In this document: positions 1 through 21,323 of the stretch, one piece after another | Numbering within the stretch: position 1 is the stretch's first letter | Layout: the number at the start of each line of letters is the position of its first letter | IMG/VR virus record: IMGVR_UViG_2897328257_000002 | Reading direction: 5' to 3' (one strand) | DNA: 35,771 nucleotides | Source: a virus | Lineage: Duplodnaviria; Heunggongvirae; Uroviricota; Caudoviricetes | The notes under the pieces: generated by a model | Seen by the model: the letters and a program-made list of their open reading frames with translations, nothing else | The model's database searches: none | What the model was told of the DNA's origin: nothing | Position numbers and translations under genes: made by a program

Positions 1-1044
1 TTAGCTGTTTGCTTCAAGGCTCGTTGCTTTAGTGGAAAGTGTGGCTAATGGATTGAAACGCAGTGCTGTTTCAAGGTGATCAGGGGCAAGATGTGCATAG
101 CGCATAGTCATTTTTATATCGTGGTGGCCCAGGATTTTTTGCAAAGCAAGAATGTTCCCGCCGGACATCATAAAATGTGCTGCGAACGTATGGCGTAGAA
201 CGTGGGTAAGTTGCCCGCGTGGTAGTACGATCGAGGTTCTATCCATCACGGCTAAAAACTGGAAGTAGCAGTCAGTAAATAATTTGAAGCCGTCTAGGGC
301 AACAATTTCCTCATACAGCTCTTTGCTGATCGGAATGCTGCGGTTTTTTTTGCCCTTAGTTCTGACAAATGTGATTCGGTATTTCGTGACCTGAGAACGT
401 GTCAGGTTCACAGCTTCGCGCCAACGTGCTCCGGTGCTCAAGCAGATTTTGACGACAAGAGCGAGCAGGGGGCTTTGGCGTTGACAGTCGAACAGAAGCT
501 CTGTGATTTGTTCATGTGTCAGCCAGGCCATTTCTTTTTCGGCAATGGTGAATTTACGCATGTTCTCCAGTGGATTTGGTGCTGTCCATTCACCGAGGCG
601 GGCTAACTCGCTAAAGACCCCACTCAGATAGCTTTGCTCCAGATTGATAGTTACCGGGCTGGCTCCTTTCTTCCATTTTTCGCTGAAGTAGATTTCACCC
701 GTCAGGCGCTTATCGCGATAGTGCGCGAACATTTTGGATGTTAGATCGGTGGCGAGGGGATTTCCGAGAGCATCGACCATCAGTATCAACTTGTCGTAAA
801 CATGCTCGCCAGCGGTCAGGGATTTGCCGTGCAGTTTGAACCAGAGTTCAACGATATCCTGTAGAGTTCGACGGTCTACCGATTCACCAAGCCAAGGCTT
901 AGCTTCTGCCTCCTCCATCGTGTGACGCTCAAAAGCTAATGCTTCGCCTTTGGTAGCGAACTGTTTACGCACGCGACGCCCGCTGCGTCCGGCGGGGTAA
1001 CATTCGCAAAGCCATTTCCCTGTGGTTAGTTTTCGTACTGCCAT
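1..1044 (-). CDS. int: Tyrosine integrase (P2/186-type phage integrase)
   Basis: Minus-strand ORF ending at TAA (1..3). First ATG is at 1042..1044 (product MAVRKLTTGKW...), so the 6-frame ORF 1..1200 is a 5' over-extension. C-terminal region LRHTFAAHFMMSGGNILALQKILGHHDIKMTMRYAHL fits the tyrosine recombinase catalytic core. Position at the prophage end next to the repressor gene. Confidence 0.9.
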   Translation of the reverse strand: MAVRKLTTGKWLCECYPAGRSGRRVRKQFATKGEALAFERHTMEEAEAKPWLGESVDRRTLQDIVELWFKLHGKSLTAGEHVYDKLILMVDALGNPLATDLTSKMFAHYRDKRLTGEIYFSEKWKKGASPVTINLEQSYLSGVFSELARLGEWTAPNPLENMRKFTIAEKEMAWLTHEQITELLFDCQRQSPLLALVVKICLSTGARWREAVNLTRSQVTKYRITFVRTKGKKNRSIPISKELYEEIVALDGFKLFTDCYFQFLAVMDRTSIVLPRGQLTHVLRHTFAAHFMMSGGNILALQKILGHHDIKMTMRYAHLAPDHLETALRFNPLATLSTKATSLEANS

Positions 1045-1232
1045 AAAAAATGCCCTCCAGTAGAGAGCATTTTCACTGTATGTATAACCAGTGTCAATGT
1101 ATGAAATCCTACGACCATACATCTCACTGAAGCCATAATTAAGTTGGCTATTCTTTTTGCTATGTGAGCATGTAATTTTTGCGGTTAACCTGCGGCTCAT
1201 TTTTATTTTAGGCGCAGATATAAAAGCAAAAG

Positions 1233-2010: not shown

Positions 2011-2155
2011 AAGTCCTCCAAAGAAATCCAAAATTCGTTGACAGATTCCAAAAGCGATCTTAAAGTTGAACCAGAAGTGTTCTTTTGGAGCCTTCACTAC
2101 TAATCACGACAAACAACGGCTCGCCACAAGCCATATCTAGAAGGAATGTTGCCTT
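2011..2155. promoter_or_regulatory. Lysis/lysogeny switch region between divergent cI and apl genes (promoters and operators expected, not resolved)
   Basis: Intergenic segment between the oppositely oriented repressor and Apl/Cox-like genes. Individual promoter or operator sites were not mapped. Confidence 0.4.
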
Positions 2156-2359
2156 ATGACACCTAACATTTCAATTACTCTGAATACACCACATGTCACA
2201 ATCGAACGTTATAGCGAACTGACTGGCCTTTCTATTGATACGATTAACGACATGTTGGCTGATGGCCGACTACCTCGTCATCGTCTTCGTAAAGACAAAA
2301 AACGTGAAAAGGTAATGATTAACCTGGCTGCTCTGACTGTTGATGCTTTGTCTGCTTAA
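2156..2359 (+). CDS. apl: Apl/Cox-like small HTH regulator (excisionase / lytic-switch protein)
   Basis: ATG at 2156; 67 aa with HTH-like segment [24 protein letters not shown]. First gene of the rightward early operon, divergent from cI. Confidence 0.7.
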
Positions 2360-2423
2360 TAGACGTCTATTTTCGCAATAAGACGCTGAGTTCGATTTTG
2401 CGATAAGTTCGGAGTTGAAAACC

Positions 2424-2933
2424 ATGTTTGATTACCAAGTTTCCAAACATCCACATTTTGATGAAGCCTGTCGTGCATTCGCACTGCGCCACAATCTGGT
2501 GCAACTGGCAGAACGTGCAGGCATGAATGTGCAGATTCTGCGGAACAAACTGAACCCAGCTCAACCTCATTTATTAACCGCACCAGAAATTTGGTTGCTT
2601 ACCGATCTGACTGAAGATTCAACGCTGGTAGATGGTTTTCTGGCACAGATTCACTGCCTGCCATGTGTACCGATTAATGAGGTAGCAAAAGAGAAACTGC
2701 CGCATTACGTCATGAGTGCAACTGCAGAGATAGGACGTGTCGCGGCAGGTGCGGTTTCTGGCGATGTAAAAACCAGTGCAGGCCGTCGTGATGCGATCAG
2801 CAGCATTAACTCTGTTACACGACTGATGGCGCTGGCTGCTGTTTCATTGCAGGCCCGTTTACAGGCTAATCCTGCGATGGCGAGTGCAGTTGATACCATG
2901 ACTGGTCTTGGTGCTTCATTCGGTTTGCTGTGA
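2424..2933 (+). CDS. cII: CII-like early regulatory protein (phage 186 CII family)
   Basis: ATG at 2424 with GGAG 9 nt upstream; 169 aa beginning [24 protein letters not shown], recalled as 186 CII-like. Position immediately after apl. Confidence 0.75.
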
Positions 2934-2940
2934 GGTGCTT

Positions 2941-3237
2941 ATGCTTACGAAAGAACCATCATTTGCATCGCTGCTGGTAAAACAAAGTCCGGCAATGCAC
3001 TACGGTCACGGCTGGATCACGGGTGAGGATGGAAAACGCTGGCATCCATGTCATTCACAAGATGAATTGCTGTCTGAATTGACCACGAGGAAACGGAGAA
3101 AGTCCAAATGTATGCGGCAGAAAGTGAAGTGGTTTATCAGTTTCGTTACAGAGGGGAGAGTTATTCAGTACCTGAAGATGATTTGCTCTGTTGCTATCCG
3201 TCATTGTCGGGCGATGGCAGTTACTTTTTCACGTTAA
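2941..3237 (+). CDS. Hypothetical early protein
   Basis: ATG at 2941 just after the cII stop (GAGGTG upstream); 98 aa. The 3' third overlaps the next ORF in another frame and looks non-protein-like, so the true stop is uncertain. Confidence 0.45.
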   Translation: MLTKEPSFASLLVKQSPAMHYGHGWITGEDGKRWHPCHSQDELLSELTTRKRRKSKCMRQKVKWFISFVTEGRVIQYLKMICSVAIRHCRAMAVTFSR

Positions 3238-3332
3238 AGGATGGGACGTTTTTACGGGGAGAGCAGGTTAAAGAGACGATACGAAAAAATGTATCTCCTC
3301 TTGAGCGTTACCGTAAGAACAAAGAACGATAG
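3108..3332 (+). CDS. Hypothetical early protein
   Basis: ATG at 3108 with GGAG 9 nt upstream; 74 aa (MYAAESEVVYQFRYRGESYSVPEDD...). Overlaps the previous ORF by about 130 nt in a different frame. Confidence 0.5.
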   Translation: MYAAESEVVYQFRYRGESYSVPEDDLLCCYPSLSGDGSYFFTLKDGTFLRGEQVKETIRKNVSPLERYRKNKER

Positions 3333-3354
3333 CTGCGTTTGGGGGATATGAAGT

Positions 3355-3696
3355 ATGGCAATTAATGGCGCTGCAGCAACTGTTCCATTAAGCCCCGGTG
3401 AACGCCTGAATGGACTTAATCACATTGCGGAGTTAAGGGCGAAAGTTTTTGGCCTGAATATTGAGTCAGAGCTTGAGCGGTTTATTAAAGATATGCGTGA
3501 TCCACGGGATATCAATAATGAACAAAATAAACGGGCACTGGCTGCCATATTCTTTATGGCAAAAATTCCAGCTGAACGTCATAGCATCAGCATTAATGAG
3601 CTGACCACTGACGAAAAGCGGGAGCTGATTAAAGCAATGAATCATTTTCGTGCAGTGGTGAGCTTATTTCCCAGACGGCTAACCATGCCGAATTAA
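3355..3696 (+). CDS. Hypothetical early protein (113 aa)
   Basis: ATG at 3355, G-rich RBS upstream; same strand and spacing as the early operon. Confidence 0.6.
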   Translation: MAINGAAATVPLSPGERLNGLNHIAELRAKVFGLNIESELERFIKDMRDPRDINNEQNKRALAAIFFMAKIPAERHSISINELTTDEKRELIKAMNHFRAVVSLFPRRLTMPN

Positions 3697-3763
3697 CCAA
3701 CTAATGAAATTAATGGCGTAAACCCGCCGGGCATCCCTTTATCTAAATTCAGGAGAATTGATT

Positions 3764-3997
3764 ATGCGTAATATTGAAACCCTCACGACTAAAACCGGAC
3801 CGGATGACGCAGGGCTTAATATTTTACTGACAGAGGCTCGTCTGGAAGAACGCCGGGCAAGGGCAGAAGCAATGGCAGCTCGCCTTGATAGCCTGGCGTG
3901 TCATATCACATCCCGCCAGCTAAACCACGTCGAAGCGGCAGAACTACTGCGTGTAACTGCTGAAGCAATCCAGAACGAAGCGCAGGAGATCCACTAA
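3764..3997 (+). CDS. Hypothetical early protein (77 aa)
   Basis: ATG at 3764 with AGGAG (3751..3755) 8 nt upstream; stop overlaps the start of the next gene. Confidence 0.55.
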   Translation: MRNIETLTTKTGPDDAGLNILLTEARLEERRARAEAMAARLDSLACHITSRQLNHVEAAELLRVTAEAIQNEAQEIH

Positions 3998-4224
3998 TGG
4001 CTGATGCAATGGATCTCGTACAGCAGCGCGTTGAAGAAGAACGCCAGCGCCATATTCGTGCTGCCCGTGCCAAAACACCGGGCGTGTCTCGCGTGCTTTG
4101 TATTGAATGTGAAGCGCCAATTCCGCCAGCACGACGCCGCGCCATTCCGGGAGTGCAGCTTTGCATTACCTGCCAGGAAATCGCAGAGCTGAAAGGCAAA
4201 CATTACAACGGAGGTGCTGTATGA
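3997..4224 (+). CDS. TraR/DksA-family C4 zinc-finger protein
   Basis: 75 aa with CIECEAPIP...(17 aa)...CITCQE, a four-cysteine finger at the C-terminus typical of phage TraR/DksA-like proteins. Stop overlaps the Dam start (ATGA). Confidence 0.75.
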   Translation: MADAMDLVQQRVEEERQRHIRAARAKTPGVSRVLCIECEAPIPPARRRAIPGVQLCITCQEIAELKGKHYNGGAV

Positions 4225-5078
4225 GCACCATCCTGAAATGGGCGGGAAATAAAACCGCCATTATGTCCGAACTGAAAAAACACCTTCCTGCTGGCCCGCG
4301 ACTGGTTGAACCTTTCGCGGGTTCCTGTGCTGTGATGATGGAGACGGATTACCCCAGCTATCTGGTTGCGGATATTAATCCTGATTTAATCAACCTCTAT
4401 AAAAAGGTTGCCGCTGATTGTGAATCGTTTATATCTCGCGCCAGAGTTTTATTTGAGATCGCAAACAGGGAGGTGGCTTATTACAACATAAGGCAGGAGT
4501 TTAATTACTCCACTGAAATTACTGATTTCATGAAAGCGGTATATTTCCTGTATCTCAATCGTCACGGTTACCGTGGTTTATGTCGCTATAACAAGAGCGG
4601 GCATTTCAACATTCCCTACGGTAATTATAAAAATCCGTATTTCCCTGAAAAAGAAATTCGCGCATTTGCAGAAAAGGCCCAGCGAGCAACGTTTATCTGC
4701 GCCAGCTTTGATGAAACGCAGGCGATGTTGAAGGCGGGGGATGTGGTGTATTGCGATCCGCCGTATGACGGTACGTTTTCCGGCTATCACACTGACGGCT
4801 TCACTGAAGATGACCAGTATCACCTGGCATCTGTTCTTGAACATCGGTCATCAGAAGGACATCCGGTCATTGTTTCTAACAGTGACACATCCCTGATCCG
4901 TTCGCTGTATCGCAATTTTACTCACCACTACATCAAGGCAAAACGCAGCATCGGTGTGGCAGCTGGCGAGGGTAAATCAGCAACAGAAATCATTGCTGTT
5001 TCCGGGCCGCGCTGCTGGGTGGGATTTGATTATTCGCGTGGCGTGGATAGTTCTGCCGTGTACGGAGTACGTGCATGA
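4221..5078 (+). CDS. DNA adenine (N6) methyltransferase, Dam/D12 class
   Basis: ATG at 4221 behind GGAGG (4211..4215). N-terminus [35 protein letters not shown] (AdoMet-binding FxGxG-like motif) and catalytic DPPY (CDPPYDG). Stop overlaps the gene A start. Confidence 0.85.
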
Positions 5079-7489
5079 GTCATGCCGATATGAACAACTG
5101 CTGCGGCTTTAACGAAGCTGCCGCATCGTTCTCATGGAACAGCCCGAAAAAGGCCATTAACCCTTATCTGGACCCGGTGGAAGTTGCGCCGGTTTCTACG
5201 CTTTCAAACCTGATCACTCTGTACGCTGCCGATAACGAGCAGGAACAGCTGCGCCGTGAGGCGCTGAGTGATCAGGTCTGGGAGCGTTATTTCTTTAATG
5301 AATCCCGTGATCCTGTCCAGCGCGAAATGGAACAGGATAAGCTCATTAGTCGGGCAAAGCTGGCGCATGAGCAGCAGCGTTTTAATCCGGATATGGTCAT
5401 TCTGGCGGACGTCAACGCCCAGCCTTCCCATATCAGCAAGCCGCTGATGCAACGTATTGAATACTTCAGCAGCCTTGGCAGGCCAAAGGCTTATTCCCGC
5501 TATTTACGTGAGACGATTAAGCCATGTCTGGAACGACTGGAGCATGTACGCGACAGTCAGCTATCTGCATCTTTTCGCTTTATGGCAAGCCATGAAGGGC
5601 TGGACGGCCTGCTGATCCTGCCTGAAATGAGTCAGGATCAGGTGAAACGCCTGTCCACCCTGGTAGCTGCGCATATGAGTATGTGCCTTGATGCCGCTTG
5701 TGGCGATTTGTATGCCACCGATGACGTTAAGCCAGAAGAAATCCGCAATACATGGGAAAGGGTGGCAGCGGAAACCCTGCGTCTGGATGTAATCCCGCCT
5801 GCGTTTGAGCAACTCCGTCGGAAAAGAAACCGCCGTAAACCCGTGCCCTATGAACTCATTCCGGGTTCGCTGGCGCGTATGTTGTGCGCCGACTGGTGGT
5901 ACCGGAAATTATGGAAAATGCGTTGCGAATGGCGGGAAGAGCAGTTGCGTGCTGTCTGCCTTGTCAGCAAAAAAGCATCTCCCTATGTCAGCTATGAAGC
6001 CGTGTTGCATAAACGTGAGCAGCGCCGTAAGTCGCTGGAGTTTTTCCGTTCTCATGAACTGGTGAACGAAGACGGCGACACGCTGGACATGGAGGATGTG
6101 GTAAACGCCAGCAGCAGCAACCCTGCGCATCGCCGCAATGAGATGATGGCCTGTGTTAAAGGTCTGGAGCTTATCGCGGAAATGCGCGGTGACTGCGCCG
6201 TTTTCTACACCATCACCTGTCCGTCACGTTTCCATTCCACGCTAAATAACGGCAGGCCCAACCCGACCTGGACAAATGCGACGGTAAGACAAAGCAGCGA
6301 TTATCTGGTCGGTATGTTTGCTGCATTTCGTAAGGCGATGCACAAAGCCGGGTTGCGCTGGTATGGCGTGCGGGTGGCTGAGCCGCATCACGACGGCACA
6401 GTTCACTGGCACCTGTTGTGTTTCATGCGCAAAAAAGACCGCCGCGCCATTACTGCATTGTTGCGTAAGTTTGCTATCCGTGAAGACCGCGAGGAGCTGG
6501 GCAATAACACGGGGCCGCGCTTTAAGTCTGAGCTGATTAACCCGCGCAAAGGAACGCCGACAAGCTACATAGCGAAATACATCAGTAAGAACATTGACGG
6601 GCGTGGTCTGGCTGGCGAGATCAGCAAGGAAACGGGTAAATCTCTGCGTGATAACGCTGAATACGTGAACGCCTGGGCGTCTTTGCATCGTGTTCAGCAA
6701 TTCCGCTTCTTTGGCATTCCGGGGCGTCAGGCTTACCGTGAACTGCGATTGCTGGCTGGTCAGGCGGCAAGGCAACAGGGGGACAAAAAAGCAGGTGCGC
6801 CGGTACTGGATAACCCGCGCCTTGATGCCATCTTGGCTGCTGCTGATGCTGGTTGTTTTGCCACCTACATCATGAAGCAGGGCGGCGTACTGGTTCCCCG
6901 TAAATATCACCTCATCAGAACCGCTTATGAAATCAACGAAGAGCCGACCGCCTATGGCGATCACGGCATTCGTATTTATGGCATCTGGTCACCCATTGCA
7001 GAGGGCAAGATCTGCACTCATGCAGTGAAGTGGAAAATGGTTCGTAAAGCCGTTGACGTTCAGGAGGCGGCAGCCGACCAGGGCGCTTGCGCCCCTTGGA
7101 CTCGTGGCAATAACTGTCCCCTTGCTGAAAATTTGAACCAACAAGGGAAAGACAAATCAGCTGATGGGGATACCAGAACGGACATTACCCACATGGATGA
7201 CAAGGAGTTGCACGATTACCTGCACAGTATGAACAAAAAAGAGCGCCGGGAACTGGCTGCAAGGTTACGCCTGGTGAAACCGAAACGGCGTAGAGACTAC
7301 AAACAGCGAATTACAGACCATCAACGACAGCAGCTCGTCTATGAACTGAAGTCCAGAGGATTTGATGGCAGCGAGAAAGAGGTCGATTTACTCCTTCGCG
7401 GCGGCAGTATTCCGTCAGGAGCAGGCCTGCGTGTCTTCTATCGGAACCAGCGTTTGCAGGAAGATGATAAGTGGCGGAACCTGTATTAA
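5075..7489 (+). CDS. A: Replication initiation endonuclease (P2 gpA / 186 A family, rolling-circle HUH protein)
   Basis: 804 aa; HUH-like motif [10 protein letters not shown] and tyrosine-containing YIAKYISK segment; position and size match gene A of P2-like phages. Confidence 0.9.
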
Positions 7490-7581
7490 TTACGCGGGTT
7501 AACAATTCGTGCTCTTAATAATACCAGGCATATCAGGCTGATGAACGTAAAAAAACGTTTTACATCAGTAAGATTATTATA

Positions 7582-7601
7582 TACTGTAAATATAAACAGT
7601 G
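7582..7601 (+). promoter_or_regulatory. LexA (SOS) box TACTGTAAATATAAACAGTG
   Basis: CTGT-N8-ACAG palindrome with an AT-rich spacer, close to consensus TACTGTATATATATACAGTA. Lies about 40 bp upstream of the RBS/ATG at 7643, with TTTACA (7559..7564) 17 bp upstream as a possible -35. Confidence 0.7.
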
Positions 7602-7642
7602 GTTATCTATACAGTATTGTTTGCGGTGTCATAGGAGGAAAG

Positions 7643-7831
7643 ATGCAGGACTATTTTTTGGAGTCTTTGAAGCTCCAGCGCATTGATTTTTTTCTTAAGC
7701 TTGTAGCGGCTAGTGAGTGTAGTGATGAAGAGAAGGGGCTGGCCCTGCAGTGGGTTTCTGAATTGACTGATGAACTCATGGCAAAAATCAGAAGCCACGA
7801 ATACAACCGCTCAATGGATGTCATCAGCTGA
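7643..7831 (+). CDS. Small hypothetical protein (62 aa) downstream of the LexA box; possible SOS-induced antirepressor-type factor
   Basis: ATG at 7643 with AGGAGG (7633..7638). First ORF after the SOS box. The antirepressor (Tum-like) function is inferred from position only. Confidence 0.45.
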   Translation: MQDYFLESLKLQRIDFFLKLVAASECSDEEKGLALQWVSELTDELMAKIRSHEYNRSMDVIS

Positions 7832-7841
7832 GGTGACTTTT

Positions 7842-8075
7842 ATGCGCATTGAAATAATGATCGATAAAGAGCAGAAGATTAGCCAGTCTACCCTTGACGC
7901 TCTGGAGTCCGAGCTTTACCGCAACCTGCAACCCATCTATCCCAAGACCGCTATCCGCATCCGTAAAGGGTCGGCAAACGGCGTTGAGCTGAGTGGCTTA
8001 AAGCTTGATGAAGACAAAAAGCGGGTGATGGAAATTATGAAACAGGTTTGGGAAGACGACAGCTGGCTGCACTAA
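7842..8075 (+). CDS. dinI: DinI-family protein (DinI/MsgA-like)
   Basis: 77 aa, MRIEIMIDKEQKISQSTLDALESELYRNL...RVMEIMKQVWEDDSWLH. Aligns along its length with E. coli DinI (MRIEVTIAKT...ALAGELSRR...KQRISEILQETWESADDWF). GAGGTG RBS before the ATG at 7842. Confidence 0.8.
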   Translation: MRIEIMIDKEQKISQSTLDALESELYRNLQPIYPKTAIRIRKGSANGVELSGLKLDEDKKRVMEIMKQVWEDDSWLH

Positions 8076-8193
8076 GGAACGTTCCTGATGTAAGAACTTG
8101 AATCTGACGTCAGCAAGGTTGAACAACGAGAGTAGCGAGGCGTTAGCCATGGGTAAAAAAGACAGTAATCACCAGATTATTTATCGGGGCTAG

Positions 8194-8409
8194 GTGCTGG
8201 AACGTTTAACCCTTGGCGACTGGGTCTTCTTTCAACGCCCAAAGGAGTGTGGCGGAGGTTTTTGGTTGGGCCGCATCTATGAAGACTGCTTCTGGCTTGA
8301 GCTGGAATTTCCCGTTTCGCTATATGACGGCCTGGGGTTTTTGATGGAAGTCACTAGGGTAGAGCAGAGAAGTGATGAGGTTGACGCGAATTATCCCCTG
8401 TTTGATTAA
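8194..8409 (+). CDS. Hypothetical protein (71 aa from GTG); possibly a nonsense-interrupted gene starting at ATG 8149
   Basis: ORF from GTG 8194. An in-frame ATG at 8149 (GAGG upstream) is separated from it only by a TAG at 8191..8193. Confidence 0.3.
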   Translation: MLERLTLGDWVFFQRPKECGGGFWLGRIYEDCFWLELEFPVSLYDGLGFLMEVTRVEQRSDEVDANYPLFD

Positions 8410-8457
8410 AAATGTATTAGCTTATAATGGAATACTATTTTTGCAGGTGGGGGCGCA

Positions 8458-9069
8458 ATGGATTTAGTCTTTAAAGTTCTGGCTTCGTTGGGTGGGGTGT
8501 CTTTTGTTGCATCTGGCATATTTGTTTGGATCGGGAAAGTTTATTTAGAAAGATATAAGTCGCGGCTAAACAAAGATATTGCTGAATTTCAATCACAACT
8601 GAGTGCAACTAATGAAAGAATAAAGGCTAAGTTAGACAATTCTGTTTATGTAACGAAAGCGTATTTTGATAAGGAGTTATCAGCATATAGTCTCATTTGG
8701 AATTCGATGTTTGAAACCAGAGAAAGCGTGCTTAAGCTGAGGCCTGCGCTGGATCATGTTGACCCCAACGAACCATTTGAAGAGAGAAAATTTAGAAGGT
8801 TGAAAGTTTTTTTTGATGCATTTAACACTTTTGTTACAAGTGTTGAATCTAACAAACCGTTCATCTCACCAGAGGTTTATATAATCTTGGACCGTTTCCG
8901 GAAGGAATGCCTTTCAGAGTCAATATCGTTTAAGCATAGCGATCCAGAATTTGACGGGCAAAATTATTGGAAAGAGGCGGAGTTGAACCGTACAACCATC
9001 ACCAAGCTTTTTGATGAGACGTGTGATGCAATTCGAGACAGGATGCACACATTAACTGTGGTTACGTAG
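8458..9069 (+). CDS. Membrane-anchored hypothetical protein (203 aa; one N-terminal TM helix, then a charged, partly coiled-coil domain)
   Basis: ATG at 8458. N-terminus LVFKVLASLGGVSFVASGIFVWIG is hydrophobic; no recognised motif. AT-rich cargo region; followed by a terminator. Confidence 0.6.
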   Translation: MDLVFKVLASLGGVSFVASGIFVWIGKVYLERYKSRLNKDIAEFQSQLSATNERIKAKLDNSVYVTKAYFDKELSAYSLIWNSMFETRESVLKLRPALDHVDPNEPFEERKFRRLKVFFDAFNTFVTSVESNKPFISPEVYIILDRFRKECLSESISFKHSDPEFDGQNYWKEAELNRTTITKLFDETCDAIRDRMHTLTVVT

Positions 9070-9160
9070 GTTTCCAAAAAGTCTCGATGCCCGCTTTGGA
9101 GATTGTGCATGTCTATGCCGCATGAATCCGCATGATCGTTTGAGGATCGTTTTAGCTGAG

Positions 9161-9188
9161 GCCCGCCAGGAGTGGCGGGCTTTTGCTT
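9161..9188 (+). terminator. Rho-independent terminator (GCCCGCC-AGGAGT-GGCGGGC followed by TTTTGCTT)
   Basis: Perfect 7-bp GC stem with 6-nt loop and 3' T-tract, about 90 bp downstream of the 8458..9069 gene. Confidence 0.6.
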
Positions 9189-9229
9189 ATGTCATGCAGG
9201 CGCATGAAAACCGCTACATAAAGCGGGCA

Positions 9230-9248
9230 GGCGTGGCGGGGATACGAT
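9230..9248. other. Probable cos site (cohesive-end sequence GGCGTGGCGGGGATACGAT)
   Basis: Matches the P2/186 cohesive-end 19-mers as recalled (GGCGAGGCGGGGAAAGCAC / GGCGTGGCGGGGAAAGCAT) in the first 13 nt, and is followed by TGCGCGCT as at the recalled P2 left end. Sits in a GC-normal intergenic stretch between A-side cargo and the Q/P packaging genes. Confidence 0.5.
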
Positions 9249-9316
9249 TGCGCGCTAGGTATAAGTGTGTAAAATAATTCCAAAATAAATCATCCTAATG
9301 AAGTGAGAGGGTAATA

Positions 9317-10966
9317 ATGTTAGTCAAGAAAAATAAAAATTATAGTTTATATTTTTTAATTACAAATAATCAACAGATATCTGATTCTGGTAATTATATA
9401 AAAATAGTCCCATCAAGAAGCGATTGGAATGATTTTGGATATTTGAGTAGAGTCGAAATATCTATTTTTAATAAAAAAGAGTGTAAGGATATAATTTCAC
9501 TGAATGGTTATATTGGTTTTTTGAATTCAGAGGAGGAACGAAATGGAAAAGCAGAACTGATAAGGCGAGTGAAGAAAAAGGAAGAATCTAATTTAAAGGA
9601 TGAGGGGTTTAATGATTATTTTGTCATGCTTCAGGATATGAATAATTATCGAAGACTAGTAAGATTTTTTGGGGTGAATGAATCCAAATATATATTAAAT
9701 TTCATTAATGATGTTGTTTCTAAGAAAAGTGACGCTAGTGCAGAGAATTTGAGGAAAAAAGCAATCTCTTCTGATATCTTTAATAAATCTTTCATTAGAG
9801 AGTCTGAGTCGTATTTTACTTTCAAAAATGCAGGAACAGTTCTTTCCGGTATTCAATATGAGGAGTTGGGTAATTTATCACAGCACATCAAGATTAGCTA
9901 TTCGAATAAAGTTAATGAAGAAGATGTATCTTATGTTTTTAATTTTGATCACGAGCATGATTTACCAAAAAGAATTTCCATAATTATAGGCGAGAATGGT
10001 GTAGGAAAAAGCCAAACGCTTAGAGAAATCGCATTGGCTGCGATTAAAGGAAAGGATAATTTGGTGGCTGTAGTTGATTCTAACGGTGTAAGCATTGAAG
10101 AACGAATTCAAATTAGTAGGCTCATTGCTTTTTCTCCAACAAATGAAAGTAAGTGTTCATTTCCAACCGATAAAAGAATAAAATCATTGATATGGTACAA
10201 AAGATTGACTTTAAATCGTGAATCAAAATCCAAATTAAACTTGAATGATTTAATAGTGCAACTAGCGAGGAGTAACGACGCTATCGGCTATAATCAAAGG
10301 TGGAATATATTTGTTGATGCACTGAGTGTTCTAAATAGTAACAACGATTTAGTAATCAAATGTAGCGGTGAAAATTCACCATTTGTTAAATTAAATGAGC
10401 TTAATTCTCGAGGCGAAGAATCCAGACTATCATTATATTCTGAAATTATTCTCTCTGGCGAGCCTTTGAGGCTTGTTGAAAATAAATGTTACCCTTTGAG
10501 TAGTGGGGAAATATCGTTTATTAAGTTTTGTGTACAAGTCTGTTTGTATATTGAGAATGGGACTCTTCTATTAATAGATGAGCCAGAAACACATCTCCAT
10601 CCTTCATTTATTAATAAATTTATGGCATTGCTTGATAATTTATTAGAAAAGACAGGCTCTTCAGCTATCATAGCAACGCATTCGGTTTATCTTGTTCGGG
10701 AGGTTTTTAAGGAGCAAGTGACAATACTCAGAAGACGAGATGATGGGGTAATTGTTAGCGAAAAACCGAGATTGAGTACTTTTGGGGCGAATATAGGAAA
10801 TATCTCATATTTTGTTTTCGGTGAGAGTGAACCAACTCAAATTTTAAATAAAGTAAAAAATAATATAATTGCAAAGAATATGTCTTGGGATGATGTTGAA
10901 TCTAAATATAGCGAGGACTTATCACTTAATGTATTAACTGCGTTGAGAAATGAAATAGGCAATTGA
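9317..10966 (+). CDS. ABC-type (AAA_15/AAA_21-like) ATPase with ~220-aa N-terminal extension; PtuA-like candidate defence ATPase
   Basis: 549 aa. Walker A GENGVGKS (~residue 225), signature-like LSSGE, Walker B/D-loop LLLIDEPETHLHP, H-loop IIATHS. N-terminal ~220 aa has no recognisable motif. Very AT-rich; stop is 1 nt before the next start. Confidence 0.75.
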   Translation: MLVKKNKNYSLYFLITNNQQISDSGNYIKIVPSRSDWNDFGYLSRVEISIFNKKECKDIISLNGYIGFLNSEEERNGKAELIRRVKKKEESNLKDEGFNDYFVMLQDMNNYRRLVRFFGVNESKYILNFINDVVSKKSDASAENLRKKAISSDIFNKSFIRESESYFTFKNAGTVLSGIQYEELGNLSQHIKISYSNKVNEEDVSYVFNFDHEHDLPKRISIIIGENGVGKSQTLREIALAAIKGKDNLVAVVDSNGVSIEERIQISRLIAFSPTNESKCSFPTDKRIKSLIWYKRLTLNRESKSKLNLNDLIVQLARSNDAIGYNQRWNIFVDALSVLNSNNDLVIKCSGENSPFVKLNELNSRGEESRLSLYSEIILSGEPLRLVENKCYPLSSGEISFIKFCVQVCLYIENGTLLLIDEPETHLHPSFINKFMALLDNLLEKTGSSAIIATHSVYLVREVFKEQVTILRRRDDGVIVSEKPRLSTFGANIGNISYFVFGESEPTQILNKVKNNIIAKNMSWDDVESKYSEDLSLNVLTALRNEIGN

Positions 10967-10967
10967 A

Positions 10968-11831
10968 ATGAATAAATTAAAAAGACCTGTTTTTAAAGAT
11001 TATTCTGCATTTAAAAAACTATCTGCAAATAAGAGATTAAAACATCATTCTGTTCTGAATGGACAGGATACATTTATACTTAATGCATATAGATCGTACA
11101 TAAAGAATAAAGGATATCTTAATGTCAATTCTTGTGGCGTATTGAGTAACAATATTGCTGAAGCTTTGAAATATTATTATAACAATCCCGCAAAGTGTTT
11201 ATCTATAATTGATGATATAAGAGCAGCTAATTCTAATTCTCTATGTCCAATGTGTGGTTCAATGCATAGCGGGACTTTGGATCATGTTTTACCCAAGGAA
11301 AACTATCCAGAATTTTCTTTATTCACTAAGAATTTGGTTCCTGCTTGCAAATGTAATACTTTCAAAAGTACTACTATAGCTAATTCTGCAGGCCATCGGA
11401 TGCTGCATCCATATTTTGATAATATATTAAAAAAAAGATTAATATGTGCTAATTTTTCTAAATTAGGGCGAACACCTACAATTGATGTAAAAATCATAAT
11501 TGACCCAATGTCACCAGAATATAACAATGTTAAGTATCATCTTGATAATGTTGTTATCAAGAATAATATTAAGGGGTATTTGTCTGAACAATGGGAGTCG
11601 TTTTACTTATATCCTGAGCTTGTTATTAGAGGACTGAATAAGAGTCTTTCTACTTATAGCGATGTATATGAGTTGTTGACTCGCGAGTTGTTGCTGTTGG
11701 ATGAAAAACATAAAGGTAAAAATAATTGGAATTCGGTTTTTGTAGCTGGGTTAATTCGACCTGATGTGATTAGGTGGATACTCTGTGAATTACATTTAGG
11801 TAACAGAAGTCCAGACGGTCGTCTCATATGA
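10968..11831 (+). CDS. HNH endonuclease-domain protein; PtuB-like candidate defence nuclease
   Basis: 287 aa with CPMCGSMHSGTLDHVLPKENYP...NLVPACKCN...H...LHPYF, an HNH core with cysteine zinc-binding pairs. Translationally coupled to the upstream ATPase. Confidence 0.7.
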   Translation: MNKLKRPVFKDYSAFKKLSANKRLKHHSVLNGQDTFILNAYRSYIKNKGYLNVNSCGVLSNNIAEALKYYYNNPAKCLSIIDDIRAANSNSLCPMCGSMHSGTLDHVLPKENYPEFSLFTKNLVPACKCNTFKSTTIANSAGHRMLHPYFDNILKKRLICANFSKLGRTPTIDVKIIIDPMSPEYNNVKYHLDNVVIKNNIKGYLSEQWESFYLYPELVIRGLNKSLSTYSDVYELLTRELLLLDEKHKGKNNWNSVFVAGLIRPDVIRWILCELHLGNRSPDGRLI

Positions 11832-11841
11832 TTTTTTGCAT

Positions 11842-11867
11842 CTTCAGCGTGTATCTGCACGCTGAAG
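11842..11867. other. Perfect 10-bp inverted repeat (CTTCAGCGTG - TATCTG - CACGCTGAAG) between the HNH gene and the Q stop
   Basis: Seen directly; T-run lies on the 5' side on the plus strand, so not a canonical terminator for either flanking gene. Possible cassette boundary or protein-binding site. Confidence 0.4.
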
Positions 11868-11938
11868 AAATTCATAAAAACTGCTGGCTATTAATAACTT
11901 TTTTTAGTTGTGTTAAAGAACCTCATTTAGTTATTACG

Positions 11939-12970
11939 TTAAGTAGCTAGTTTATAACTATCAAATTTAACAATGTTCTCACTTACCAATTTATTTATTT
12001 CCATCATTCTTTTTTGTAACGGTATTAACTCGTTACGTACAAACACCAGGCTCGCCTTCTCCACATCCCCAAACCCCCCGACATTATTAGGCATAATCCC
12101 CATCATTTGCGGTGGCACACGATGCGCCGCCATCATGTCATCCCGGCTCACGTTCTTGATGTTCAGAAACTCATCCTTCGCCGCGACTTCTGACAACGGG
12201 ATGATCTGAAGCCCGTCCTTTTTGCCGTTAGGCGAGTACATAAACAGATTGCGGAAGTTACCTGGTCCTTTGGCGCTTTTCATCGCATTGCGGAGGTTGT
12301 TCACATCCTCCTGGTTTTGCGCGGCATCGGTCATGTACATGATGAAGCCTGCATGACTGCCGTTAATGTAATACTTTCGGCGGAACAGCGTGGCGGACTC
12401 GTTGAGCAGGGCTGACGGAATGGCAGAAAGGTAACCTGGCAGGCCGTAGATCTCCTGGTTGATGTCCGGTTCCATCAGATGAAAAATGCTGCCTTTCGTG
12501 AACTGATACGGCTGGGTTGTCATACCGTATTGCACAAACCAGTAGGTATCCAGGTCTAACCCGCGTCGGGTGTATTTTGCCAGAGCAGGCTCAAGAGCGA
12601 TGACCTCTCCGAACCGGTTTGTGCGTTTCTCCAGGTAAGCGTTACCAAATACCAGATAATCCTGCACAAAACGTGAAAAAGCCTGCTGGCTGAGCAGCGG
12701 GTGAGGGATGTAGGTACTGGTCAGAATGTTGCACTTTACTGCAATCGGGGAGCTATGATGTACGGCAGCGCGGAAGGTTCGCGCCAGTCCGTCAAAACTC
12801 ACTGGCGGCTCATACCAGCGATCTGTCTGTACGCATTCCACATAGTCCAGTAGTTCACGGCGGTCCAGAACCGGAACGGGATCGCCGAAGCTGAATGCTT
12901 CGGCTGAAGCCTGGTTTTTATGCTGGATCTGTTTCGTCGACGCAGCGCGGTTTTTCTTACTCTTTCCCAT
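11939..12970 (-). CDS. Q: Portal protein (P2 gpQ family)
   Basis: 343 aa from ATG 12968..12970; start overlaps the P stop (TGATG); size and order (Q downstream of P, both leftward) as in P2. Confidence 0.9.
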   Translation of the reverse strand: MGKSKKNRAASTKQIQHKNQASAEAFSFGDPVPVLDRRELLDYVECVQTDRWYEPPVSFDGLARTFRAAVHHSSPIAVKCNILTSTYIPHPLLSQQAFSRFVQDYLVFGNAYLEKRTNRFGEVIALEPALAKYTRRGLDLDTYWFVQYGMTTQPYQFTKGSIFHLMEPDINQEIYGLPGYLSAIPSALLNESATLFRRKYYINGSHAGFIMYMTDAAQNQEDVNNLRNAMKSAKGPGNFRNLFMYSPNGKKDGLQIIPLSEVAAKDEFLNIKNVSRDDMMAAHRVPPQMMGIMPNNVGGFGDVEKASLVFVRNELIPLQKRMMEINKLVSENIVKFDSYKLAT

Positions 12971-19853: not shown

Positions 19854-20247
19854 AGCGGTGCCTTATGTCCGCAATAACCCGGAAAAACTGCATCTGTTTG
19901 TGGATAACGGTTCGCTGGTTGCCACGGGGGCCAGCTCCATGTCGTGGGAGTACCGTTACACCCTGAACGCGGTGATTGAGGATTTCAGCGGCGACCAGAA
20001 TCTGTTGATGGCCCCGGTTTTACTGTGGCTGAGGGATAACCAGCCCGATGCCATCAATAACCCGGCGTTACGGGAAAAACAATTCACCTTTGAGGTGGAT
20101 ATTCTGCGCAACGATGTCTGTGATATCAGCTTGAACCTGCAACTGACGGAACGTGTGCTGGTCAGCACTGACGGCAGTGTGTCGAGCGTTGAAGCTGTAG
20201 CGGAACCCGATGAACCTGAAGAAATGTGGACGGTGAAACGTGGCTGA
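19816..20247 (+). CDS. R: Tail completion protein R (P2 gpR family)
   Basis: GTG at 19816 behind AGGAG (19804..19808); about 143 aa; order lysis-R-S as in P2. Confidence 0.75.
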   Translation: MNKPQSLRHALNKAVPYVRNNPEKLHLFVDNGSLVATGASSMSWEYRYTLNAVIEDFSGDQNLLMAPVLLWLRDNQPDAINNPALREKQFTFEVDILRNDVCDISLNLQLTERVLVSTDGSVSSVEAVAEPDEPEEMWTVKRG

Positions 20248-20692
20248 ACTGCAGAAAGTGGACGACTGGCTGAGTGCCTTGCTGGCGAATCTGGAATCAG
20301 CCGCCAGAAGCCGCATGATGCGCCAGCTGGCGCAGGAACTGCGCCGGACACAGCAGCAGAATATCAGGATGCAGCGCAACCCTGACGGCAGCAGCTATGA
20401 ACCGCGACGGGTAACAGCACGAAGTAAAAAAGGGCGCATCAAACGTCAGATGTTTGCAAAGCTGCGCACCACAAAATACCTGAAAACCGCCGCCAGCGCG
20501 GATTCTGCCAGCGTACAGTTTGAAGGTAAGGTGCAGCGCATTGCCCGCGTTCATCATTACGGCCTGCGCGATCGCGTCAGTCCAAAGGGGGGAGTCATTA
20601 AGTATCCATCCCGAAAATTGCTGGGTTTAAATGAACATACTGAAAATGAAGTAAGAGATTTACTTTTAAAGTATTTTTTGATGAAAAATTAG
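20240..20692 (+). CDS. S: Tail completion protein S (P2 gpS family)
   Basis: 150 aa, same size as P2 gpS; GTG start overlapping the R stop. Confidence 0.8.
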   Translation: MAELQKVDDWLSALLANLESAARSRMMRQLAQELRRTQQQNIRMQRNPDGSSYEPRRVTARSKKGRIKRQMFAKLRTTKYLKTAASADSASVQFEGKVQRIARVHHYGLRDRVSPKGGVIKYPSRKLLGLNEHTENEVRDLLLKYFLMKN

Positions 20693-20697
20693 AATGT

Positions 20698-21228
20698 TTA
20701 CGCACTTAATAAACTTAAATAACTTTTTATGCTTTGGCAAAAAGGGAAAAGGTCTATTTTAATTTTCCAGTTTTTTTTGTTTTGAACCCCAGAAGCAATA
20801 ATAGAACCATCCCAATATTTTATTCCATTTTTGCCGGTCTTTTTTGTTAACTCAAAACTTAATGCGTGAATAATTTTATTGCAGCATTCGCGTATAGAAC
20901 CTTTAACATGACCATCTATAACAAAAAGTATATTTTCATGTTCTTCAAATGCTTCTTTCTCAGGTGAGTAATCTGGGTTCCACTCATGTTCACTAGTGTC
21001 TTGGAGAATTCGTAGTTTTGTACAAAGGCTAATAAGATTGTTGCTAATGGTATATTCCAACCATCCGTTGTACGATAACTCCTCCATTTCAAATTCAGTT
21101 ACTATAGAATCATCATATACTTTCTGTGTGGAATATATACGCTGTAAATAAAATTCAGATGAACAGCATAATTGCTCAATTATTCTTGCGTGTTCTTCTA
21201 TAGCGTAATAATCAATTGGATGGCTCAT
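20698..21228 (-). CDS. Hypothetical protein (176 aa) in AT-rich moron between S and V (P2 orf30 position)
   Basis: ATG at 21226..21228 (product MSHPIDYYAIEEHARIIEQL...); opposite strand to the flanking late genes; no recognised motif. Confidence 0.6.
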   Translation of the reverse strand: MSHPIDYYAIEEHARIIEQLCCSSEFYLQRIYSTQKVYDDSIVTEFEMEELSYNGWLEYTISNNLISLCTKLRILQDTSEHEWNPDYSPEKEAFEEHENILFVIDGHVKGSIRECCNKIIHALSFELTKKTGKNGIKYWDGSIIASGVQNKKNWKIKIDLFPFCQSIKSYLSLLSA

Positions 21229-21259
21229 TCTTTTACCTTTCTTCGATTGGAATTGTATT

Positions 21260-21277
21260 TGTGTCATTTACCACACA
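21260..21277. promoter_or_regulatory. Late-promoter activator dyad TGT-N12-ACA (TGTGTCATTTACCACACA) upstream of V
   Basis: Exact dyad in the 95-bp intergenic region between the moron start and the V start. Confidence 0.5.
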
Positions 21278-21323
21278 AGGACGTATTGATGCCATAGATT
21301 CAAGGTCCGTGCAACCTAACCCT

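What the first reader, a model, noticed from the sequence alone, without database searches (positions are those of the whole stretch)
8458..9069. Membrane-anchored 203-aa orphan protein in the hotspot
A single N-terminal TM helix is followed by a charged, partly coiled-coil domain with no recognisable catalytic motif. The gene is AT-rich, has its own RBS and a strong downstream terminator, and sits in the defence hotspot. Single-gene membrane-anchored proteins at such loci are often abortive-infection or superinfection-exclusion effectors.
Basis: inference. Interest (0 to 1): 0.55.

Follow-up and report, generated by a model that had tools for sequence, protein, structure and literature searches.

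The report
Membrane-anchored prophage moron of unknown function
This is a real, conserved gene for a small inner-membrane protein carried as optional cargo at the right end of a P2/186-like prophage; it is expressed in lysogens and rises under DNA-damage-like stress, and it may block other phages, but nothing yet shows what it does.

Summary
The 203-aa ORF at 8458-9069 is real and under purifying selection (dN/dS 0.12 against Enterobacter). It has one N-terminal TM helix and a predicted cytoplasmic helical stalk plus four-helix bundle (AF2 pLDDT 94.5).

It is not an orphan. A profile search finds 922 cluster representatives of about 200 aa in several phyla, all matching phrog_26391. None matches Pfam, NCBIfam, PADLOC or PDB.

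The window is a 186/P2-like prophage. The gene is the last one on the phage right arm, just before cos. This is the position of old/tin in P2 and orf97 in 186. It lies downstream of a LexA-box promoter homologous to 186 p95.

The Septu-like pair lies on the other side of cos and is an unrelated module: the same protein occurs with at least nine different left-arm cargos.

Published RNA-seq of the 97.5%-identical LF82 (Cartapus) orthologue lists it as one of two morons of that prophage. It is about 5-fold above its upstream neighbour in LB and about 30-fold higher in macrophages.

Relatives sit in accessory slots of other temperate phages and satellite-like elements. One clade, however, sits inside a cysD-cysN operon.

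An anti-phage role (exclusion or abortive infection at the cytoplasmic face of the membrane) is the best guess, at about 0.4, and is untested.

The parts
7582..7601 (+). LexA box (TACTGTAAATATAAACAGTG) in a promoter region homologous to p95 of phage 186. It marks the start of the SOS operon that ends at the target gene.
   Evidence: It is the only zero-mismatch CTGT-N8-ACAG in the window. It aligns with the annotated LexA site and p95 -10 of NC_001317, and is conserved in Cartapus and an Enterobacter prophage.
7643..7831 (+). 62-aa ORF, first gene of the SOS operon (phrog_698, unknown function).
   Evidence: Annotated as WP_001154434 in related prophages. Its LF82 orthologue CARTA_44 is strongly induced in macrophages.
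7842..8075 (+). DinI-family gene, the Tum-like SOS-operon gene.
   Evidence: PF06183 E = 4.9e-23 and phrog_189. The 186 tum gene is annotated as a DinI-like protein repressed by LexA.
8149..8409 (+). Small ORF of phrog_2100 (87 aa in Cartapus), interrupted here by an in-frame TAG. The remaining ORF is 71 aa, starting at GTG 8194. In E. coli it is always found with the target.
   Evidence: Present in the same roughly 42 E. coli genomes as the target. Frameshifted in six Enterobacter prophages, and reduced to its last 17-25 codons in decayed copies.
8402..8428 (+). Candidate private promoter: TTGATT, 15-nt spacer, TATAAT.
   Evidence: Read directly from the sequence. The scan tool missed it because it needs a 16-18 nt spacer. 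The block is almost invariant in all copies, including decayed ones. In LF82 the orthologue is about 5-fold more transcribed than the gene just upstream. The start site has not been mapped.
8445..8453 (+). Shine-Dalgarno sequence AGGTGGGGG.
8458..9069 (+). Target CDS, 203 aa, member of phrog_26391.
   Evidence: dN/dS is 0.12 against the Enterobacter orthologue.
8476..8535 (+). Transmembrane anchor (residues about 7-26), with conserved G12-G13 and G26-K27.
   Evidence: Hydrophobicity and conservation. K/R residues are enriched after the helix in 117 of 122 relatives, which predicts N-out/C-in.
8536..8643 (+). Charged helical stalk (residues about 27-62), of variable length across the family.
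   Evidence: AF2 gives a continuous helix over 13-92. Across the family the K27-E73 interval (which includes this stalk) takes discrete lengths: 36, 40, 44, 47, 51, 55 and 62 residues.
8644..9054 (+). C-terminal four-helix bundle (residues about 63-199). Near-invariant residues: E73, W81, L94-R95-P96, P134-F135, E154, I192-R193, R195.
9158..9189 (+). Terminator-like hairpin plus U-tract, inside the conserved cos-proximal segment.
   Evidence: Conserved in FDN-11, Enterobacter and decayed copies. The aligned position in 186 is also a hairpin but has no U-tract; the annotated t95b of 186 lies further upstream.
9230..9248 (+). cos cohesive-end sequence (GGCGTGGCGGGGATACGAT), the boundary between the right and left arms of the phage chromosome.
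   Evidence: 14 of 19 identical to P2 cosL/cosR, GGCGAGGCGGGGAAAGCAC. The Cartapus record annotates the equivalent bases as its cos site.

Best explanation
**Shown**
- The gene is a stand-alone accessory gene (moron) of a 186/P2-like prophage, and the last gene before cos.
- It is a real gene under purifying selection.
- It is independent of the neighbouring Septu-like pair.
- Its orthologue is transcribed autonomously in lysogens and rises under macrophage (SOS) conditions.

**Predicted**
- It encodes a single-pass inner-membrane protein. About six residues are outside the cell. A helical stalk and a four-helix bundle are in the cytoplasm.
- Two inputs drive transcription: a private promoter just upstream, active in the lysogen, and read-through from the LexA-repressed tum/DinI operon when the SOS response fires.

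**Inferred**
- The protein most likely acts at the cytoplasmic face of the membrane as a phage-exclusion or abortive-infection factor.
- The bundle would bind a phage or host membrane-associated protein. The anchor would hold the protein at the site of DNA entry or allow oligomerisation.
- Its level would rise when the resident prophage is induced, protecting the producing cell from competitors.
For: **Gene is real**
- Conserved ORF. dN/dS is 0.12 against Enterobacter.
- 922 family representatives, nearly all full length.

**Architecture**
- One TM helix, positive-inside in 117 of 122 relatives.
- AF2 model at pLDDT 94.5 showing a stalk plus four-helix bundle.

**Slot**
- cos lies at 9230-9248.
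- P2 carries old and tin at this position.
- 186 carries orf97 here, a predicted membrane protein annotated 'expression from plasmid blocks 186 infection'.
- The DinI-to-cos interval differs between prophages.
- The gene is present in 52 of 5426 E. coli genomes, against 1301 genomes that carry the flanks.

**Independence from downstream cargo**
The same or near-identical protein occurs with all of these left-arm cargos:
- Septu-like pair, AIPR and DUF4145.
- A retron-like RT, an OLD-like protein, AAA_21+RloB, a Schlafen-like protein and a 223-aa unknown.
- PRTase+DprA.

**Expression**
- LexA box homologous to 186 p95.
- The LF82 orthologue LF82_789/CARTA_47 is listed as a moron, 7-fold above prophage background in LB (PMC9928086 Table 1).
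- It gives about 46 normalised reads in LB, against about 9 for the upstream gene.
- Its log2 expression goes from 5.4 in LB to 10.5 at 6 h in macrophages, while gpA stays near 2.5 (S1 Table).

**Family on other mobile elements**
- Pseudomonas phage Riah near the cI region, Clostridium phage Maintenon, and a Lactiplantibacillus integrase/VapE element.
- An int-xis-X-repressor-primase element on an IMG/VR contig.
- Islands carrying an integrase, TA genes or E1/E2 genes.

**Prior**
- 15-32% of unknown-function P2 genes score as antiviral by machine-learning methods.
- 6 of 8 unknown-function P4 hotspot loci protected against phages when tested (PMC13586616).
Against: - No phenotype is known for any family member.
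- No similarity to any PADLOC model, for the target or for 122 relatives beyond noise.
- The fold is a generic up-down four-helix bundle, so it says nothing specific.
- With almost no periplasmic residues, the protein cannot act like Sie proteins that meet the phage in the periplasm.
- One clade (64-79% identical to one another) is stably inserted between cysD and cysN in a sulfate-assimilation operon. This points to a non-defence role for at least part of the family.
- Rousset et al. list the protein only as 'hypothetical' in a DinI + hypothetical + AIPR locus, and the held text shows no test of it.
- The private promoter has an unusual 15-nt spacer and its start site is unmapped.
Confidence: 0.4

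Rival explanations
1. Host-fitness moron unrelated to phages. The membrane-tethered cytoplasmic bundle would organise or regulate a host membrane-associated process (envelope or stress physiology, or tethering of an enzyme complex) and so help the lysogen in particular environments.
For: - The orthologue rises in DMEM and further in macrophages, as does the other Cartapus moron.
- A clade of the family is fixed inside a cysD-cysN operon, which suggests a scaffold or tether role.
- The bundle resembles protein-binding modules such as FAT domains.
- No defence-family similarity.
Against: - Most sampled contexts outside the cys clade are phages, satellite-like elements or islands rather than conserved operons.
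- There is no conserved partner gene.
- The slot holds exclusion genes in the reference phages.
Confidence: 0.25
2. Accessory function in the prophage's own induction or lytic cycle. As the distal gene of the SOS operon, it would act after DNA damage, for example by delaying division or lysis, or by anchoring replication or packaging at the membrane.
For: - It lies downstream of the LexA-box promoter and the Tum/DinI-like gene, on the same strand, with a terminator-like hairpin only after it.
- CARTA_44 to CARTA_47 are co-induced in macrophages.
- From general knowledge: SOS-controlled small membrane proteins are often division inhibitors.
Against: - It is present in only about 4% of E. coli genomes that carry this type of prophage flank, so it is dispensable.
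- It is expressed in uninduced lysogens about 5-fold above its upstream genes.
- Relatives occur in satellite-like and non-phage contexts that show no SOS operon.
Confidence: 0.2
3. Third component or regulator of the adjacent Septu-like ATPase + HNH pair (9317-11831).
For: Only proximity and similarly low GC.
Against: - cos and a conserved backbone segment separate them.
- The protein occurs with at least nine other cargos, and once as the last gene of a phage whose left arm carries a DUF4145 protein.
- The one other genome covering 80% of 7500-12300 carries the ATPase+HNH pair, and the uncovered 20% matches the size of the target's slot (H33; which part is missing was not checked).
Confidence: 0.02
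4. Spurious ORF or decaying remnant.
For: Eleven E. coli genomes carry 90%-identical copies with a 20-nt deletion, or annotated only as fragments, in decayed prophage remnants.
Against: - The window copy is intact.
- dN/dS is 0.12.
- Hundreds of full-length relatives exist.
- The orthologue is transcribed.
Confidence: 0.01

Closest known systems
LF82_789 / CARTA_47 of Escherichia phage Cartapus (E. coli LF82 prophage)
   Same: It is the orthologue: 97.5% amino-acid identity, same position after DinI and the phrog_2100 ORF, and the last gene before cos. It is reported as one of the two Cartapus morons on the basis of RNA-seq (PMC9928086).
   Different: The left-arm cargo is a DUF4145 protein rather than the Septu-like pair. 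The upstream small ORF is intact there. No function has been assigned.
phrog_26391 (PHROGs, unknown function)
   Same: Full-length match, E = 1.7e-142. All 122 sampled relatives match it and no other PHROG.
   Different: It is only a sequence cluster with no annotation. The family extends far beyond phages, with 922 cluster representatives including chromosomal ones.
Orf97 of coliphage 186
   Same: Same position: distal gene of the LexA-controlled p95-tum operon, just before cos. It is also a predicted membrane protein. The record notes that expression from a plasmid blocks 186 infection.
   Different: No detectable homology (BLASTP E = 29; hhalign probability 0.3%). It is 243 aa with two hydrophobic segments.
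P2 Old and Tin (lysogenic-conversion exclusion genes)
   Same: Same cos-proximal right-arm slot between gene A and cos. Both are non-essential and are annotated as blocking lambda or T-even phages.
   Different: They are on the opposite strand with their own promoter. Old is an AAA ATPase annotated as an exonuclease. Neither is annotated as a membrane protein. No similarity was seen: no PADLOC or PHROG cross-hit.
Classical superinfection-exclusion membrane proteins (T4 Imm, P22 SieA, HK97 gp15, lactococcal Sie2009); comparison from general knowledge
   Same: Small prophage- or phage-encoded membrane proteins expressed without lytic development.
   Different: No family-level match in PHROGs, Pfam or PADLOC. 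Here nearly the whole protein is predicted to be cytoplasmic, so any block would act from inside the cell.
Four-helix-bundle sensor and adaptor domains (Adeh_2942 sensor 4k0d, TorS, Tar/Tsr ligand-binding domains, FAK FAT domain)
   Different: Sequence identity is only 3-13%, and Foldseek E >= 0.02. The bacterial sensor domains are periplasmic and lie between two TM helices. This bundle is C-terminal, cytoplasmic and follows a single TM helix. No Pfam 4HB family matches.

Membership tests
P2/186 cos-proximal hotspot cargo (moron) | Lies between replication gene A and portal gene Q, next to cos. | tested here: met
   gpA is at 5075-7489, cos at 9230-9248, and a portal gene follows the Septu-like pair. 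The hotspot definition is from PMC9122126.
P2/186 cos-proximal hotspot cargo (moron) | Present in some, but not all, closely related prophages. | tested here: met
   52 of 5426 E. coli genomes have the gene, against 1301 that have the flanks. Other prophages carry other genes, or almost nothing, between DinI and cos.
P2/186 cos-proximal hotspot cargo (moron) | Transcribed autonomously in the lysogen. | tested here: met
   This rests on published RNA-seq of the 97.5%-identical orthologue, not of this strain: 7-fold above prophage background, and about 5-fold above the upstream gene (PMC9928086). The candidate promoter is conserved.
P2/186 cos-proximal hotspot cargo (moron) | Compositionally foreign, with its own translation signals. 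| tested here: met
   38.7% GC against 50.5% for the window; Shine-Dalgarno AGGTGGGGG.
Superinfection-exclusion / abortive-infection protein | Reduces infection by other phages when expressed. | not testable with these tools
   Needs plaque assays. No published test was found.
Superinfection-exclusion / abortive-infection protein | Homology to a described Sie, Abi or defence family. | tested here: not met
   PADLOC gives 0 hits for the target and only scattered noise for 122 relatives. The only PHROG hit is an unknown-function family. Pfam and NCBIfam give nothing.
Superinfection-exclusion / abortive-infection protein | Membrane localisation. | tested here: inconclusive
   Predicted only: one hydrophobic helix, conserved across the family. 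No dedicated topology predictor or experiment was available.
186 SOS (p95-tum-orf97) operon | LexA box in a promoter upstream of a Tum/DinI-like gene. | tested here: met
   Perfect CTGT-N8-ACAG at 7584-7599, aligned with the annotated LexA site of 186. DinI domain E = 4.9e-23.
186 SOS (p95-tum-orf97) operon | The distal gene is homologous to orf97. | tested here: not met
   BLASTP E = 29; hhalign probability 0.3%.
186 SOS (p95-tum-orf97) operon | The distal gene is co-induced with the operon under SOS conditions. | tested here: inconclusive
   In LF82, CARTA_44 to CARTA_47 all rise in macrophages while gpA does not. Read-through has not been separated from regulation of the private promoter. 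That these samples represent SOS induction is my reading of the paper's description of macrophages as a genotoxic environment.
Septu / PDC-M01 system | Constant co-occurrence with the ATPase and HNH genes. | tested here: not met
   The protein is found with at least nine other cargos and is separated from the pair by cos.
Periplasmic four-helix-bundle sensor domains (4HB_MCP-like) | Bundle flanked by two TM helices and exposed to the periplasm, with a Pfam match. | tested here: not met
   There is a single TM helix, positive-inside rule points to a cytoplasmic bundle, and no Pfam match. Only the fold is similar.
Holin / lysis protein | Sits in the lysis cassette next to an endolysin. | tested here: not met
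   It lies in the early/SOS region before cos, far from the late operons.

The most novel reading that the evidence does not exclude
The gene could be the first recognised member of a widespread, so far unnamed family of single-gene anti-phage factors. The family has at least 900 clusters at 50% identity, across Proteobacteria, Firmicutes, Acidobacteria-like and Gemmatimonadetes lineages. It is carried by temperate phages and satellite-like elements. Each member is a membrane-tethered cytoplasmic four-helix bundle. Such a factor would exclude or abort competing phages from the inner face of the membrane. In 186-like prophages it would be boosted by the SOS response, so that an induced cell is protected while it makes virions.
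Probability: 0.3. Interest if true: 0.6.

Novelty: new member of a known kind. Interest (0 to 1): 0.4.

Why it matters
If the protein proves to be anti-phage, it would add a new, easily transferable single-gene family to the defence catalogue. It would also show that the right arm of P2/186-like phages, between the SOS operon and cos, is a second cargo slot, regulated differently from the better-known left-arm slot. Coupling a defence or exclusion gene to LexA would give a concrete case of a prophage guarding the cell during its own induction. If it is not anti-phage, the family is still a large uncharacterised group of membrane-tethered bundles. Its presence inside a cysD-cysN operon would then be the best lead to its function. 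Either way, the RefSeq label 'valyl-tRNA synthetase' on some copies is an annotation error worth correcting.

Tried and rejected
- **Neighbourhood survey of distant relatives.** The search for related loci on genome contigs failed twice with alignments A2 and A3, because no stretch was conserved enough. I sampled contexts one at a time with the look-up of encoding contigs instead.
- **AlphaFold-database fold search.** The afdb50 library was unavailable.
- **HP1 orf1.** This 205-aa protein from the int-cI region of a P2-like Haemophilus phage appeared in the viral fold search. It is not a sequence relative (hhalign probability 0.5%), so I dropped it.
- **186 Orf97.** Tested for homology; none found.
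- **Copies outside intact prophages.** I considered that copies outside intact P2-like prophages (L003/L032, L013) were in P4-like satellites. I rejected this. They keep the P2-type upstream ORF end, the hairpin and a degenerate cos. One is followed by a PRTase+DprA pair, a combination validated as a P2-hotspot system. They look like decayed P2-like remnants. One lies next to ssrA.
- **Viral-contig scans.** Scans with three more distant relatives (P0022, P0027, P0020) found nothing.
- **Literature.** Searches for orf97 and for the protein accession found nothing useful. The supplements of PMC9122126 list the protein only as 'hypothetical'. No supplement text is held for PMC13586616.
- **Rfam.** No RNA family in the region.
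- **Pfam Val_tRNA-synt_C.** The hit (16.7 bits against a cut-off of 25.9) is a coiled-coil artefact.
Full report
**1. The observation**

- It has one strongly hydrophobic segment at the N-terminus. The best 19-residue Kyte-Doolittle window scores 2.0 from residue 7, and there is no second segment.
- It is highly charged, with 29 K+R and 30 D+E.
- Its GC content is 38.7%, against 50.5% for the window.
- AGGTGGGGG lies 8 nt before the ATG.
- A G+C-rich hairpin followed by TTTTGCTT lies at 9158-9189. The fold of the surrounding 61 nt is -26.4 kcal/mol, z = -3.2 against shuffles.
- Pfam, NCBIfam and PADLOC give nothing above threshold.

Four points need correcting: the 'orphan' label, the 'coiled-coil' claim, the ownership of the terminator, and the relation to the Septu-like pair. 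Each is taken up below.

**2. The gene is real and not an orphan**

It matches phrog_26391 over its full length (E = 1.7e-142).

Close homologues of 66-98% identity occur in E. coli, Salmonella, Enterobacter and Citrobacter. Against the Enterobacter orthologue, dN/dS is 0.12 (dS 0.83), which is clear purifying selection.

A profile search of 1.84 billion cluster representatives found 922 proteins at E <= 1e-3 and 388 at E <= 1e-10. Nearly all are 190-235 aa and match over their full length.

I aligned 122 of them (A2):
- All 122 hit phrog_26391 and no other PHROG.
- None has a meaningful Pfam, NCBIfam or PADLOC match.
- A profile search of PDB sequences finds nothing.
- Near-invariant positions are E73, W81, L94-R95-P96, P134-F135, E154, I192-R193 and R195.

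Some RefSeq copies are labelled 'valyl-tRNA synthetase'. This traces to a sub-threshold match of the stalk helix to PF10458 (16.7 bits against a cut-off of 25.9) and is an annotation artefact.

**3. Architecture**

With the 122-sequence alignment, AlphaFold2 gives a confident model (mean pLDDT 94.5, pTM 0.76):
- A short helix at residues 2-10, then a break at the conserved G12-G13.
- One long helix over residues 13-92, made up of the membrane anchor, the charged stalk and the first bundle helix.
- Helices at 107-131, 138-160 and 168-199, which pack with the end of the long helix into a four-helix bundle.

Fold searches:
- Foldseek finds nothing significant in the PDB or in viral models. Top hits are the FAT domain of FAK and Tar.

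The fold is therefore generic and does not identify a function.

Topology and stalk:
- 114 of 122 members have exactly one N-terminal hydrophobic helix.
- 117 of 122 have more K/R in the 15 residues after it than before it (mean 3.25 against 0.44).
- By the positive-inside rule, about six residues are outside the cell and the stalk and bundle are cytoplasmic. This is a prediction, not a measurement.
- The interval from the anchor boundary (K27) to E73, which includes the stalk, comes in discrete lengths across the family (36, 40, 44, 47, 51, 55, 62 residues), consistent with a rigid helical spacer. Its heptad periodicity in this protein is not significant. 'Coiled-coil' is therefore unproven.

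**4. Where the gene sits**

The window is a 186/P2-like prophage. In order it carries:
- integrase (4-1200, minus strand) and a 186-type CI repressor
- Dam methylase, then gpA at 5075-7489
- the region of interest
- a portal gene on the minus strand

The P2 record gives cos as GGCGAGGCGGGGAAAGCAC. The window has GGCGTGGCGGGGATACGAT at 9230-9248, preceded by the same AAAACCGC...AAGCGGGC context. The Cartapus record annotates the equivalent bases as its cos site.

The target is therefore the last gene of the phage right arm. The Septu-like ATPase + HNH pair (9317-11831, PDC-M01A/B) is the first cargo of the left arm.

A BLAST of 7500-12300 against 5426 complete E. coli genomes shows the pattern:
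- The DinI block (to about 8147), the cos block (about 9106-9260) and the portal gene are conserved in about 1300 genomes.
- The two intervals between these blocks vary independently.

The hairpin lies inside the conserved cos block. It is a backbone element, not a private terminator.

**5. Independence from the neighbours**

The target or near-identical orthologues occur with many different left-arm cargos:
- a DUF4145 protein in Cartapus/LF82
- AIPR
- in Enterobacter, where the protein sequence is identical across loci: a 223-aa unknown, AIPR, a retron-like STM3845+RT pair, an OLD-like ATPase, AAA_21+RloB and a Schlafen/AlbA_2 protein
- PRTase+DprA in a decayed remnant

It is not part of the Septu-like system.

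In E. coli it is always accompanied upstream by a small phrog_2100 ORF. That ORF is not needed for the target:
- It carries an in-frame stop in this window.
- It is frameshifted in all six Enterobacter loci.
- It is reduced to its last 17-25 codons in decayed copies, and is barely transcribed in LF82.

The block from about 75 nt upstream of the ATG is nearly invariant in every copy. It includes TTGATT-15-TATAAT at 8402-8428.

**6. Regulation**

The only perfect CTGT-N8-ACAG in the window is at 7584-7599. It aligns with the annotated LexA site and -10 of promoter p95 of phage 186. It is conserved in Cartapus and in an Enterobacter prophage.

In 186, p95 drives tum (DinI-like) and then orf97, ending before cos. 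Here the same layout reads:
- LexA box
- 62-aa ORF
- DinI-like gene
- phrog_2100 ORF
- target
- hairpin
- cos

Published RNA-seq of LF82 covers the 97.5%-identical orthologue LF82_789/CARTA_47 (PMC9928086):
- It is listed as one of only two Cartapus morons, 7-fold above prophage background in LB (Table 1).
- In S1 Table it has about 46 normalised reads in LB, against about 9 for the upstream ORF and about 8 for DinI.
- Its log2 values rise from about 5.5 (LB) to 7.2 and 8.6 (columns B1 and B6), then to 9.0 and 10.5 (columns MB1 and MB6).
- CARTA_44 and DinI rise sharply only in the MB columns. gpA stays near 2.5 throughout.
- The table legend says the conditions are LB, DMEM and macrophages, and the paper calls macrophages a genotoxic environment. 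Assigning B to DMEM and MB to macrophages at 1 h and 6 h is my inference.

This supports a private promoter active in the lysogen plus extra expression when the SOS operon fires. The two contributions have not been separated.

**7. What the slot and the family suggest**

In the reference phages, the DinI/A-to-cos slot holds exclusion genes:
- P2 old and tin.
- 186 orf97, a non-homologous predicted membrane protein. Its record says that expression from a plasmid blocks 186 infection.

Other E. coli prophages carry unrelated unknown genes in this slot, or almost nothing.

More distant family members also sit in accessory positions of mobile elements:
- divergent from a ParB-like gene near the cI region of Pseudomonas phage Riah
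- between the terminase genes of Clostridium phage Maintenon
- downstream of the integrase in a Lactiplantibacillus integrase/VapE element
- between xis and the repressors of an int-xis-X-repressor-primase element on an IMG/VR contig
- in islands carrying an integrase, TA genes, or ThiF/E2 genes

No partner gene is conserved across these contexts.

Against a purely defensive reading, three proteins that are 64-79% identical to one another lie tightly between cysD and cysN in a sulfate-assimilation operon on peat metagenome contigs.

As a prior, a 2026 survey reports that 15-32% of unknown-function P2 genes score as antiviral by machine learning. It also reports that 6 of 8 unknown-function P4 hotspot loci protected against phages (PMC13586616).

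**8. Verdict**

- Firmly supported: a real, conserved, stand-alone moron encoding a predicted single-pass inner-membrane protein with a cytoplasmic four-helix bundle, located at the end of the SOS operon just before cos, and expressed in lysogens.
- Inferred, at about 0.4: it excludes or aborts other phages from the cytoplasmic face of the membrane.
- Rivals: a host-physiology moron (0.25), and an accessory role in the prophage's own induction (0.2).

It is a new, uncharacterised member of a familiar kind of element, so interest is moderate. The SOS coupling, the breadth of the unnamed family and the cysD-cysN clade are the parts worth following.

Noticed in passing
window 7582-7601: A perfect LexA box sits in a promoter region homologous to p95 of phage 186. 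The DinI-like gene and everything up to cos therefore form an SOS operon. This means the prophage is of the 186 (SOS-inducible) type rather than the P2 type.
   Followed up: yes
window 8149-8409: The small phrog_2100 ORF (87 aa in Cartapus) has an in-frame TAG here. It is strictly linked to the target in E. coli, yet often inactivated: frameshifted in Enterobacter and unannotated in about half of the E. coli copies. Its function is unknown, with no PADLOC or Pfam match.
   Followed up: partly
window 9317-11831: A Septu-like ATPase + HNH pair (best PADLOC models PDC-M01A/B; PtuA weaker), with GC of about 31-33%. It lies on the left arm between cos and the portal gene and is a separate module from the target. 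Only one of 5426 complete E. coli genomes (UPEC-245U/190328, which also carries this ATPase+HNH pair) covers 80% of 7500-12300.
   Followed up: partly
window 20698-21267 (minus strand): A GC-poor 189-aa ORF on the opposite strand, between the tail-completion gene S (20240-20692) and the baseplate spike gene V (21216-21902). It matches phrog_18838 (unknown) and has no Pfam or PADLOC hit. It looks like another moron-type insertion in the late region.
   Followed up: partly
window 32994-33072 (minus strand): The host sRNA gene RybB (Rfam RF00110, 105 bits). The prophage therefore ends before about 32.9 kb, and the right end of the window is host chromosome.
   Followed up: no
L015-L018, L022-L024, L039 (peat metagenome contigs): A clade of the family is inserted tightly between cysD and cysN, downstream of sulfite reductase and cysH. 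This is unexplained and at odds with a purely anti-phage role.
   Followed up: partly
L044 (IMGVR_UViG_2788499882_000003) 2016-7318: A relative 48% identical to the target lies in an integrase-excisionase-X-repressors-primase element. The element sits next to head-morphogenesis genes and a truncated major-head-protein ORF. It looks like a satellite-like element inserted into, or next to, a prophage.
   Followed up: partly
RefSeq annotations of orthologues (e.g. NZ_CP025862.1, NZ_AGTD01000001.1): Several copies of this protein are labelled 'valyl-tRNA synthetase'. This comes from a sub-threshold match of the stalk helix to the Val_tRNA-synt_C coiled-coil arm and is an annotation error.
   Followed up: yes
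L003 / L032 (E. coli 2015C-3121, strain 550) and L013 (Enterobacter cloacae, next to ssrA): Decayed copies of the module keep the promoter block, the hairpin and a degenerate cos. The gene is frameshifted in the E. coli remnants and intact in E. cloacae. In the E. coli remnants, a PRTase+DprA pair or DprA alone follows cos.
   Followed up: partly
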